Shown one piece after another: positions 2,492-31,791 of a stretch of 37,771 nt of DNA. This DNA comes from a virus. Lineage: Duplodnaviria > Caudoviricetes. The position numbers were made by a program, and so were the translations under genes. The stretch lies in IMG/VR virus record IMGVR_UViG_3300037722_000170, positions 1 to 37,771 of that record; one strand, written 5' to 3'. Numbering within the stretch: the stretch's first letter is position 1; every line of letters starts with the position of its first letter. Below the pieces are notes generated by a model that had not been told where the DNA came from, ran no database searches, and was given only the letters and a program-made list of their open reading frames with translations.

Positions 2492-2520
2492 AATATACGA
2501 TAAATATTTTAACGTGTCAA
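2492..2520 (-). promoter_or_regulatory. Sigma70-type promoter for the replication operon
   Basis: TTGACA-17 nt-TATATT. Confidence 0.75.
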
Positions 2521-2528
2521 GCTTTTTG

Positions 2529-2604
2529 TGGATCTGGGAGGATTTGAACCTCCGTAATTATGATATGTCTTCAGAAATATCACAATCCTTATCCTGTCAG
2601 ACCC
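2529..2604 (-). ncRNA. 76-nt tRNA-like RNA resembling the tmRNA tRNA-like domain (G3-U acceptor, T arm, no canonical D stem)
   Basis: Acceptor stem GGGUCUG/CAGAUCC plus discriminator A. T arm GGAGG-UUCAAAU-CCUCC. 10-bp central stem AUUGUGAUAU/AUAUCAUAAU. CCA is not fully encoded. Confidence 0.75.
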
Positions 2605-2606
2605 AT

Positions 2607-2730
2607 AGCTTGTCTCGTGTATACATGAAATGGTTTAGAGTTTGTAGATATGTCAGAATAACACACAAGACAAGCTCCTTAGAACCACACTACCGCTGAC
2701 CCATAGACACGAGTAGTATCGTACCCTAGT
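2607..2730 (-). ncRNA. Two hairpins 5' of the tRNA-like RNA, likely on the same precursor
   Basis: 16-bp stem 2661-2676/2607-2622 (2 G-U on minus strand) around a 38-nt loop. Second stem includes 2713-2719/2687-2693. Confidence 0.55.
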
Positions 2731-2732
2731 AA

Positions 2733-2761
2733 ATAATTACAGATTAAAATACTTTTGTCAA
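2733..2761 (-). promoter_or_regulatory. Probable promoter for the hairpin/tRNA-like precursor
   Basis: TTGACA (2761-2756)-17 nt-TG-n-AATTAT. Confidence 0.55.
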
Positions 2762-2803
2762 GTTTTTCAATTTAGTTTTTTTGTGTTTTATAATTAGGCC
2801 CTC

Positions 2804-2941
2804 AATGCTGGGGACTATACTCCCTTAGAGAGTATAGTCTACCGTCCGTTAAACCGTGCTACGGTTTGCACGTAGCTATCTTTTAGTTAAGTACGGACTT
2901 TGGCGTATAAAGCACTTAACTTATCGACACGTCCCAGCATT
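2804..2941 (-). ncRNA. Multi-stem pseudoknotted structured RNA of unknown family (strand inferred)
   Basis: 9-bp closing stem 2804-2812/2933-2941, three internal hairpins, and a 6-bp cross-pairing 2844-2849/2893-2898. Confidence 0.6.
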
Positions 2942-2960
2942 CAAAGCTTAAATAAATTCT

Positions 2961-27982: not shown

Positions 27983-28698
27983 TATAATCCGTAACTTCTA
28001 ACTGATTTCTGTCTTAGTCTAAACCTTGGCCTCTCATCAGGTGATCTCATTTGATAATGCTCTCTCATAGCATTTCTTATTAACTCTTTCTCTGCCCGAA
28101 GCTGATTAGTTTTCTTTTCCATTCCATGTGCTATGGCGTATTTTAAAGCAGCCCCAACTGATAAGAATTGATGAAATTGTGAATTGAACCCCGGCTCTGC
28201 TGTTGTGTCTGCTGTTGTAAAGTGATTTGCTCCTCTTTGAAACTCAATCTCAACTCCGTCTCCTGCGGAATAATCAGGAACAGGAATAGGAAATACTGCA
28301 CCGCCAAGTTTGTAATATTTGCTAGGACTACCTGTTGAATTAAGCTCTGTGTCTGACAACTCACTTCGAAGTCTTGGAGTTAATGTTATCAGCTGACCAT
28401 TTGAATCTTTCATCCTTACCCTGTGAATAACTAATGCCGAATCAAGTAAAGTGTAATGGTCCTGGTTTCCTGTTAAATCAAGAGTAGCAAAAGGGAAGTC
28501 TGTATTTGATGTGTCATCCCATTTATGATTTGGATCTGCTTTGTAAAGTTCAGCTACTGCCTCATCCCAAACAATGTTTACATTCCTCGTTCTGTCTGCT
28601 AAGGAGTAAGCCGTGTTTAATGTAGCGCTATCTCCAAAGAGTAAAAAATCTATATCTCCTATAATCGAAATTGATTTATCGCTTGGGTTAAATTGCAT
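27982..28698 (-). CDS. Head-to-tail adaptor (tail tubular protein A-like)
   Basis: GSPSKYY...PIPVPD...EPGFNSQFHQFLSVGAA pattern. Confidence 0.7.
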   Translation of the reverse strand: MQFNPSDKSISIIGDIDFLLFGDSATLNTAYSLADRTRNVNIVWDEAVAELYKADPNHKWDDTSNTDFPFATLDLTGNQDHYTLLDSALVIHRVRMKDSNGQLITLTPRLRSELSDTELNSTGSPSKYYKLGGAVFPIPVPDYSAGDGVEIEFQRGANHFTTADTTAEPGFNSQFHQFLSVGAALKYAIAHGMEKKTNQLRAEKELIRNAMREHYQMRSPDERPRFRLRQKSVRSYGL

Positions 28699-30735: not shown

Positions 30736-30828
30736 TTAAAGAGCTTTAATTAAAAACCAAATTATAACCCCCACCATTACCAAAAATACAAAACTTACTA
30801 ATATATCGTTGTTATAAAATTGGTTCAT
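30736..30828 (-). CDS. 30-aa membrane peptide (not in ORF track)
   Basis: MNQFYNNDILVSFVFLVMVGVIIWFLIKAL*; ATGA overlap with the nucleotidyltransferase stop. Confidence 0.55.
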   Translation of the reverse strand: MNQFYNNDILVSFVFLVMVGVIIWFLIKAL

Positions 30829-31658
30829 AGGTTAAGAATATCAACTAATAGTTCGTTTATTTTATTGCGGTTGTTTTCTTCGGGGAGTTTTGATTTTGCA
30901 TACGCCCTTTCATTTAACTTAAACTCTTTATCAGATAATTTTTGTAATTGTTCTAATGTTAGACTGCCTTTTTTAATGTTTAATAATTCATCTCGGTCTT
31001 CCTCCCTATAAACAATAAGTGTTTTATCAAGTAATAGCTCTCTTGCGTTGCGAAGAAGTCGGATTAAAGTCATTGCATTTTTAGTATCATAGCCAATCTC
31101 GTCAACAATTTTTTTTCTTTTTTCTCCCATATATCCTCTATATGCCCCAGTTTGTAGTTTTTTAAGTTGTCCGTAAGCATAGCCTGAATATCCCATATAA
31201 ATACGCCTTTTTGCTAAAAATAAATCTCTATTCTCAATTAGTGTTTTTCCACCTTCTGATGTTATAAAATAATGTTCGGGCTTATTGTAAAGATAGGTCA
31301 TTACATTAGGATTACAGTTTGATAAAAGATGAAAAGTTTTTCTAACCTCGTAAGAAACTTCATCAATAGCACCTTCCTTGCGTTCTTTAACCTCTGCTCT
31401 GTGATAATAGCTTTCAAGTGATAAATAATACTCTGTTGGGTAGCGGTAAATCTCAAAAGTATCTTCGTCATCAATCCCATACATTTTATCTTCTTCAGGT
31501 TTAATAGTTAGTCCGTGAGCAATAGAGCCACGAAAACCTGAAAGGATTGTTTGCTTATCAAATATAAATCCATATAGCTTACGAACCTTATGTTGAAAAC
31601 CCTCGCTTCTTTTTATAAATGGTTGTTCTTTCTTTATATCCTTTGTGTGAAATGTCAT
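30825..31658 (-). CDS. Pol-beta superfamily nucleotidyltransferase, RlaP/Nuc-transf (YcgL-like) family
   Basis: RGSIAHGL...DDED, YEVRK...CNPN, GYAYGQ, GYDTKNAMTLIRLL, LLNIKKG and SKLP motifs; ATG 31658 preferred as start. Confidence 0.88.
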   Translation of the reverse strand: MTFHTKDIKKEQPFIKRSEGFQHKVRKLYGFIFDKQTILSGFRGSIAHGLTIKPEEDKMYGIDDEDTFEIYRYPTEYYLSLESYYHRAEVKERKEGAIDEVSYEVRKTFHLLSNCNPNVMTYLYNKPEHYFITSEGGKTLIENRDLFLAKRRIYMGYSGYAYGQLKKLQTGAYRGYMGEKRKKIVDEIGYDTKNAMTLIRLLRNARELLLDKTLIVYREEDRDELLNIKKGSLTLEQLQKLSDKEFKLNERAYAKSKLPEENNRNKINELLVDILNL

Positions 31659-31662
31659 AGGG

Positions 31663-31791
31663 TTAATCAAAAATAACTCGTAATAATAAAAGCACAATTC
31701 CTATAAAAATTATAGTAGTGGCTATGCCTACGCCTTTAACTGCCGCCTCAATAAACAAAGCGAATAAAACTAATCCTATTATAAATCCCAT
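31663..31791 (-). CDS. Small two-TM membrane protein
   Basis: MGFIIGLVLFALF...; start reassigned to ATG 31791. Confidence 0.55.
   Translation of the reverse strand: MGFIIGLVLFALFIEAAVKGVGIATTIIFIGIVLLLLRVIFD

What the first reader, a model, noticed from the sequence alone, without database searches (positions are those of the whole stretch)
2529..2604. Stand-alone tmRNA-TLD-like RNA with alanine identity and no mRNA domain
Seen: 7-bp acceptor with G3-U wobble and discriminator A, a perfect T arm, an unstructured ACAGGAUAAGG D region, a 3-nt UAC linker, and a 10-bp stem replacing the anticodon arm. Established: G3-U70 is the AlaRS identity element, and a stemless D loop with a long stem is the tmRNA tRNA-like domain architecture. 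Inference: a decoy for SmpB/AlaRS/EF-Tu that modulates ribosome rescue, a decoy for tRNA-targeting defence nucleases, or an RNase P processing tag. Both halves are present and there is no integrase, so it is unlikely to be an attP fragment.
Basis: partly seen in the sequence, partly recalled or inferred. Interest (0 to 1): 0.78.

Follow-up and report, generated by a model that had tools for sequence, protein, structure and literature searches.

The report
Phage tag-less mini-tmRNA
This phage carries a 76-base sequence shaped like the alanine-accepting head of the bacterial ribosome-rescue RNA (tmRNA) with the tag-coding part missing, a form already reported from one mycobacteriophage and common in phage sequences, and it likely competes with the host's tmRNA so that stalled proteins would escape the normal degradation tag.

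Summary
Observation confirmed, on the minus strand (2604→2529). The anatomy is as described, and the fold is stronger than all 200 shuffles (z −3.64). CCA is not encoded (CAA follows). The window is a 37.8-kb phage contig with no integrase, SmpB or Ro60 hit. The element is a new member of the known 'TLD-only' tmRNA class: a model built without mycobacteriophage DS6A finds DS6A's RNA at 52.3 bits. In IMG/VR, 103 of 119 pattern hits pair fully (2 are tmRNA 3' ends), against 0 of 5 G3-C70 and 0 of 33 A3-U70 control hits, so alanine identity appears selected. None of 35 capsid-related phage records has it. Best mechanism (inferred, 0.5): processed, alanylated and SmpB-bound, it enters stalled ribosomes in place of tmRNA and supplies no tag. 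A split-tmRNA partner, suggested by earlier notes on other phages, is not supported here. An adjacent 165-nt structured element is unexplained. There are no expression data and the host is unknown. This scan has reported the same class on other DNA several times.

The parts
2529..2604 (-). TLD-only (tag-less) tmRNA-like RNA, 76 nt, from G1 to discriminator A
   Evidence: Fold z -3.64; RF00023 35.2 bits; model R1 60.1 bits, by construction; same model finds DS6A
2598..2604 (-). Acceptor stem 5' strand, with G3
   Evidence: Sequence
2588..2597 (-). Stemless D region with GG; keeps equivalents of E. coli tmRNA A15 and G19, while the U17 equivalent is A
   Evidence: Sequence; contacts from PMC8363625 section 6; register inferred from 70 natural tmRNA 5' ends
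2556..2587 (-). Closed central hairpin (11 bp + mismatch + 2 bp + UGAA loop) in the place of tmRNA helix H2 and the whole mRNA-like domain
   Evidence: family covariation
2537..2553 (-). T arm, 5 bp with 7-nt loop, preceded by the AC connector (A334 equivalent at 2555)
   Evidence: Sequence
2526..2536 (-). Acceptor 3' strand with U70 equivalent, discriminator A (2529), then C-A-A (CCA not encoded)
   Evidence: Sequence
2733..2761 (-). Sigma-70-like promoter (TTGACA, 17 nt, AATTAT with TG), predicted start near 2726
   Evidence: 10 of 12 matches; 7 sites found vs 4.5 +/- 2.2 in shuffles, so not significant alone
2605..2726 (-). Predicted 5' leader of about 120 nt with a long hairpin (arms 2676-2663 and 2620-2607) ending 2 nt before +1; U at -1
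   Evidence: (z -2.52)
2791..2954 (-). Separate, strongly structured 165-nt element of unknown identity; link to the TLD not shown
   Evidence: z -6.60, 0 of 200; no Rfam match near a gathering score; no homologs

Best explanation
The element is a phage-borne, tag-less tRNA-like domain of tmRNA (DS6A type) that is likely processed, alanylated and bound by host SmpB, and would then enter stalled ribosomes in place of host tmRNA without supplying a tag reading frame. Shown: the sequence, the fold, the family, membership of the DS6A class and retention of G3-U70. Inferred steps: (1) transcription from the 2761 promoter; (2) 5' cut by RNase P, 3' trimming and CCA addition; (3) AlaRS charging through G3-U70 and the A discriminator; (4) SmpB and EF-Tu binding through the D region, connector and T arm; (5) A-site entry and transfer of the nascent chain to one or more alanines, with release left to other host factors. 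The expected net effect is less ssrA tagging and less free SmpB during infection.
For: Anatomy matches the TLD as defined in PMC3968760 and PMC3985003 passages. R1, built without DS6A, finds DS6A 28478-28560 at 52.3 bits, E 1.3e-9. PMC4131195 says a molecule similar to the DS6A RNA strongly inhibits tmRNA, perhaps by titrating SmpB (citing Mao 2009, not read). TLD plus SmpB makes polyalanine in vitro without a template (passages in PMC2481249 and PMC3929946). G3-U70 pattern: 103 of 119 viral loci fully paired; G3-C70 control 0 of 5; A3-U70 control 0 of 33 true cases (5 were G3-U70 in a shifted register). A15, G19 and A334 equivalents are kept. No SmpB gene in 50 of 50 related records or this contig, so any SmpB partner is the host's. 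Three bacterial bins with a TLD-only copy also hold a full-length tmRNA.
Against: No expression, processing, charging or binding data. The D region departs from the GG-H-UUYGA consensus of 58 of 70 natural tmRNAs; the U17 and C18 equivalents are A, so SmpB affinity may be lower. CCA is not encoded (23 of 78 unique family sequences encode it). The published inhibition occurred whether or not the RNA was chargeable, so inhibition need not involve ribosome entry. Only two alternative position-3 pairs were scanned. The host is unknown and the benefit to the phage is not shown. The element is absent from 35 capsid-related records, so it is not essential to this phage group.
Confidence: 0.5

Rival explanations
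1. Pure sink: the RNA titrates SmpB (and perhaps EF-Tu) off the ribosome and never acts as an alanine acceptor of nascent chains.
For: PMC4131195 passage: inhibition whether or not chargeable, perhaps by titrating SmpB.
Against: It does not explain why non-G-U position-3 versions are missing from the control scans, unless charging is needed for stability.
Confidence: 0.15
2. Decoy or surrogate against host defence that cuts or senses tRNA/tmRNA.
For: It has no anticodon loop to cut (sequence). CoCoNuT systems are predicted to carry SmpB-like domains (PMC11090510 passages). The phage encodes an RlaP-family RNA-repair nucleotidyltransferase. Patchy distribution among relatives.
Against: No direct link to any defence system; CoCoNuT-tmRNA binding is itself a prediction; only 16 of 104 loci have a tRNA within the fetched flanks.
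Confidence: 0.12
3. RNase P processing or punctuation tag that sets the ends of neighbouring transcripts.
For: A long hairpin ends 2 nt before +1; upstream 75-nt windows fold at z < -2 in 11 of 48 loci vs 2 of 48 further upstream.
Against: Downstream windows do so in 8 of 48; the leader holds no listed ORF; alanine identity is not needed for RNase P; neighbours vary widely.
Confidence: 0.07
4. Split tmRNA: the 165-nt upstream element supplies a short tag frame in trans (UA at -5/-4, then GCA AAC, reading ANRSTV-stop at 2869-2849).
For: The motif sits inside a z -6.6 structure 270 nt upstream on the same strand. A looser motif lies upstream on the same strand in 8 of 64 family loci vs 0, 4 and 2 in control windows.
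Against: The same motif occurs 6 times in the window. Its -1 triplet CGU is one of two that were completely inactive in E. coli tmRNA (PMC2481249). The UA is predicted paired. The TLD loop has no notable complement upstream (best ranks 906, 172 and 157 of 15052 windows). No homolog of the element was found. Some of the 8 upstream motifs look like ordinary gene ends.
Confidence: 0.06
5. Non-functional relic: an attP fragment, a decayed tRNA or a deleted tmRNA pseudogene.
For: RF00023 score below gathering; no close ortholog to show conservation of this exact copy; CCA absent.
Against: All acceptor and T pairs intact; no workable cloverleaf; both halves present; no integrase; family-wide compensatory change, 8 of 8 central pairs.
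Confidence: 0.05

Closest known systems
TLD-only ('standard, no CDS') tmRNA of mycobacteriophage DS6A (tmID 11587; PMC4131195, PMC11915505)
   Same: Phage-encoded, about 80 nt, Ala acceptor with G3-U70, stemless D region, closed central hairpin, T arm, no tag frame, CCA not encoded; found by the same model.
   Different: DS6A keeps a UCGA-type D region and an internal loop plus small inner hairpin, as do many relatives; this copy has an AUAAG D region and a nearly continuous A/U-rich helix. Unrelated phage, unknown host.
CDS-less organellar tmRNAs (jakobid and other mitochondria; ~65-bp Mallomonadaceae plastid genes; PMC11915505)
   Same: Tag-less TLD, thought to work with SmpB.
   Different: They are the organelle's own tmRNA and the mitochondrial ones are usually permuted; this is an extra copy carried by a virus.
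Standard one-piece tmRNA (Rfam RF00023)
   Same: TLD anatomy and alanine identity.
   Different: No mRNA-like domain, pseudoknots or tag; 76 nt against about 350-440 nt; below the gathering score.
YrlA bacterial Y RNA (description recalled, not from a call)
   Same: tRNA-like D and T arrangement with a long stem.
   Different: No Rfam Y RNA match, no Ro60/TROVE gene; here the ends form an alanine acceptor stem.

Membership tests
TLD-only tmRNA (DS6A type) | 7-bp acceptor with G3-U70 and A discriminator | tested here: met
TLD-only tmRNA (DS6A type) | Stemless D loop with GG and a T arm | tested here: met
TLD-only tmRNA (DS6A type) | H2-like helix closed by a short loop; no tag frame inside | tested here: met
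   32-nt hairpin; ARAGORN no tmRNA
TLD-only tmRNA (DS6A type) | Falls in one model with the DS6A RNA | tested here: met
   R1, built without DS6A, scores it 52.3 bits
TLD-only tmRNA (DS6A type) | SmpB contact bases (A15, U17, G19, A334 equivalents) | tested here: inconclusive
   3 of 4 kept, U17 is A; register inferred
TLD-only tmRNA (DS6A type) | Expression, alanylation, SmpB binding, inhibition of tmRNA | not testable with these tools
   No RNA holder listed
Standard tmRNA (RF00023) | mRNA-like domain with tag frame and pseudoknots | tested here: not met
   Model centre deleted in the alignment, 35.2 < 47 bits
Permuted two-piece tmRNA | 3' half of the TLD encoded before the 5' half | tested here: not met
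   Standard order
Canonical tRNA | D stem and 5-bp anticodon stem with 7-nt loop | tested here: not met
   ARAGORN none; no 5/5 anticodon stem, best 4/5, all at the cost of the central helix. tRNAscan-SE not available.
YrlA Y RNA | Rfam match and neighbouring Ro60 gene | tested here: not met
attP fragment of ssrA | 3' part only, next to an integrase | tested here: not met
   Both halves present; no PF00589; serine recombinases not searched by family, none seen in the PHROG scan

The most novel reading that the evidence does not exclude
The phage encodes its own ribosome-rescue module in two unlinked RNAs: the alanylated TLD and the adjacent 165-nt structured RNA, which would act in trans as the message and release stalled ribosomes with a short ANRSTV tail instead of the host degradation tag.
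Probability: 0.06. Interest if true: 0.85.

Novelty: new member of a known kind. Interest (0 to 1): 0.4.

Why it matters
The tmRNA database paper counts 9 'standard, no CDS' sequences among 97,179 and names one phage case (PMC11915505). One restrictive pattern gave 64 distinct viral sequences here, and ARAGORN made an overlapping call at only 4 of 104 loci, 2 of them the full-tmRNA false members. Tag-less TLDs therefore look like common, unannotated phage cargo. Retention of the alanine identity pair, which pure SmpB titration would not need, makes a clear test: do these RNAs act on the ribosome? This copy is a natural D-loop variant for that test. The class is published and this scan has met it repeatedly, so this instance adds modestly. 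Searches listed no paper describing the wide family; the library lacks most subscription journals, and the supplements of PMC11915505 were not read.

Tried and rejected
Plus-strand fold: not significant; the Plastid-ycf2 hit there is E 3.1. Close homologs of the locus: none with the neighbouring 104-aa ORF in IMG/VR, none by blastn in cultured phages, none in earlier scan notes by sequence or place. Capsid-related phages: 0 of 5 and 0 of 30 records match R1 (3 at least 90% complete; 15 metagenome loci not held, so not searched; positive control rang). Partner-RNA reading tested and not supported for this locus. A second resume-like spot in the leader loop was noticed by eye (-1 triplet UCU, also inactive in the PMC2481249 table; no stop before +1) and dropped. 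A group I intron resemblance of the 165-nt element (recalled motifs) is not supported by Rfam or the pattern scan. Host: a guess at Patescibacteria gave 1 weak capsid match in 401 genomes; names are uninformative; host unknown. Expression: no RNA holder listed; the one DNA run that covers the element may be the source sample. PMC11662646 (AcrIIIA1) passages were read and not used. Bacterial genome scan: 73 of 120 hits were 3' ends of full tmRNAs, 13 tRNAs, 23 other fragments, 11 strict TLD-only.

Full report
Setting. The window is a whole 37,771-base virus record (CheckV 52%, though capsid-related records rated 100% complete are 38.3 and 41.0 kb). PHROG and Pfam scans give terminase, major head protein, tail fibre, M23 peptidase, holin, an O-like replication protein and an RlaP-family nucleotidyltransferase; all 58 ORFs scanned lie on the minus strand. 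The element lies in the 545-bp gap between a 104-aa ORF that follows the holin and the small ORF before the replication gene. There is no tyrosine integrase, SmpB or Ro60 hit. The host is unknown.

Observation. The described features are present on the minus strand, 2604 to 2529. The fold is -27.4 kcal/mol, z -3.64, better than all 200 shuffles, and it persists in the predicted precursor. The genome continues C-A-A, so CCA is not encoded. ARAGORN finds nothing. RF00023 matches both ends with the centre deleted (35.2 bits, gathering 47). tRNA-sized matches reach 35-48 bits on that model in bacterial genomes, so the case rests on anatomy and family, not on that score.

Family. Allowing the 5' register to shift, 103 of 119 pair at all 7 acceptor and all 5 T positions, although 7 of those pairs were free in the pattern; these are 65 unique sequences. 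Two loci (L004, L024; one sequence) are 3' ends of full tmRNAs, leaving 101 loci and 64 sequences of 62-94 nt. The same pattern in GTDB genomes gave 120 loci, of which 13 passed the pairing test; by ARAGORN overlap 73 lie in full tmRNAs, 13 in tRNAs, 23 are other fragments and 11 are strict TLD-only. Controls in IMG/VR: G3-C70 gave 5 loci, 0 strict; A3-U70 gave 33 loci, 5 strict, all G3-U70 in a shifted register. Other position-3 pairs were not scanned. The central hairpin, which was not selected for, folds at z < -2 in 44 of 78 unique sequences (mononucleotide shuffles). On alignment A1 (72 of the 78; L111, L168, L207, L227, L236 and L241 left out, the false member L004 left in) 80.0% of cells pair against 58.1 +/- 1.0% in shuffles, and all 8 central pairs show two-sided changes, though only 64.7% of those cells pair and MAFFT misregisters about 20 acceptor rows. 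Acceptor and T pairing in A1 is partly by selection. C follows the discriminator in 66 of 72. In 50 of the 101 records, SmpB was found in 0 and integrase in 2. Neighbours vary: head genes, exonucleases, helicase, unknown pairs (58 of 87 neighbours scanned). None of 35 capsid-related records holds the element (control), so it is accessory cargo here.

What is known. PMC11915505 (passages and section 12 read; supplements not read) lists 9 'standard, no CDS' tmRNAs and names DS6A as a previously reported phage form shown to inhibit endogenous tmRNA in E. coli. PMC4131195 (passages) words this as a similar molecule inhibiting tmRNA whether or not chargeable, perhaps by titrating SmpB; Mao 2009 itself was not read. 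Model R1, built without DS6A, finds its RNA at record 28478-28560, 52.3 bits. The DS6A RNA would not match my GGAU pattern, so the family is larger than counted. Passages in PMC2481249 and PMC3929946 report template-free polyalanine synthesis by TLD plus SmpB (original not read). PMC8363625 section 6 names A15, U17, A334 and G19 as SmpB contacts. Aligned by the GG and by the GG-H-UUYGA consensus of 58 of 70 natural 5' ends, this RNA keeps A15, G19 and A334 and has A for U17; the register is my inference.

Mechanism. Shown: a TLD-only RNA gene of the DS6A class with alanine identity. Inferred: transcription from a promoter-like site at 2761 (weak alone), RNase P and CCA maturation, alanylation, SmpB and EF-Tu binding, entry into non-stop ribosomes and transfer of the chain with no frame to resume on. 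I favour ribosome entry (0.5) over a pure SmpB sink (0.15) because published inhibition did not need charging, yet non-G-U versions are missing from the control scans. A defence decoy (0.12; PMC11090510 passages) and a processing tag (0.07) remain open without specific support. A relic is unlikely (0.05).

Partner RNA. Earlier scan notes suggested split tmRNAs in other phages, so I tested that here. A 165-nt element at 2954-2791 folds at z -6.6 and holds UA-NNN-GCA-AAC reading ANRSTV-stop. Against it: the motif occurs 6 times in the window, its UA is predicted paired, and the TLD loop has no notable upstream complement; its -1 triplet CGU was completely inactive in E. coli tmRNA (PMC2481249 Table 1 and text); no homolog was found. 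One result leans the other way: the D region pairs with the leader hairpin's 5' arm at rank 10 of 15052 windows, but that arm is predicted to be locked in its own hairpin. I give the split reading 0.06 and leave the element unexplained.

Verdict. Real, well formed, a new member of a known but thinly studied class, and found by this scan on other DNA before. Interest 0.4.

Noticed in passing
window 2791-2954 (-): Strongly structured 165-nt multibranch element (z -6.6) with a near-perfect 13-bp hairpin at 2813-2839; no Rfam family and no homolog found.
   Followed up: partly
window 2598-2608, 2698-2706 and about 2645-2660 (-): The predicted leader repeats short pieces of the TLD: a 9-nt direct repeat across the +1 site and short matches to the 5' end and central stem seen by eye; arms 2704-2713 and 2614-2623 allow an alternative leader fold.
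   Followed up: partly
window 2492-2520 (-): Near-consensus sigma-70 promoter (11 of 12) starts 8 nt after the discriminator and points into the replication genes; no minus-strand terminator was found between.
   Followed up: no
window 30825-31697 (-): RlaP-family (PF10127) RNA-repair nucleotidyltransferase gene.
   Followed up: no
window about 1795-1870: Tandem 24-nt repeats inside the O-like replication gene, iteron-like (interpretation recalled from lambda).
   Followed up: no
L011, L020, L050, L052 (and L180): A sub-family of TLD-only RNAs sits between the same two unknown genes (phrog_8424 and phrog_7813) in several phages.
   Followed up: no
L022, L043, L069, L090: Very short 62-63-nt TLD-only RNAs with a 5-6-bp central hairpin, close in size to the ~65-bp plastid forms.
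   Followed up: no
L187, L197, L235: Bacterial bins holding a TLD-only copy in addition to a full-length tmRNA.
   Followed up: partly
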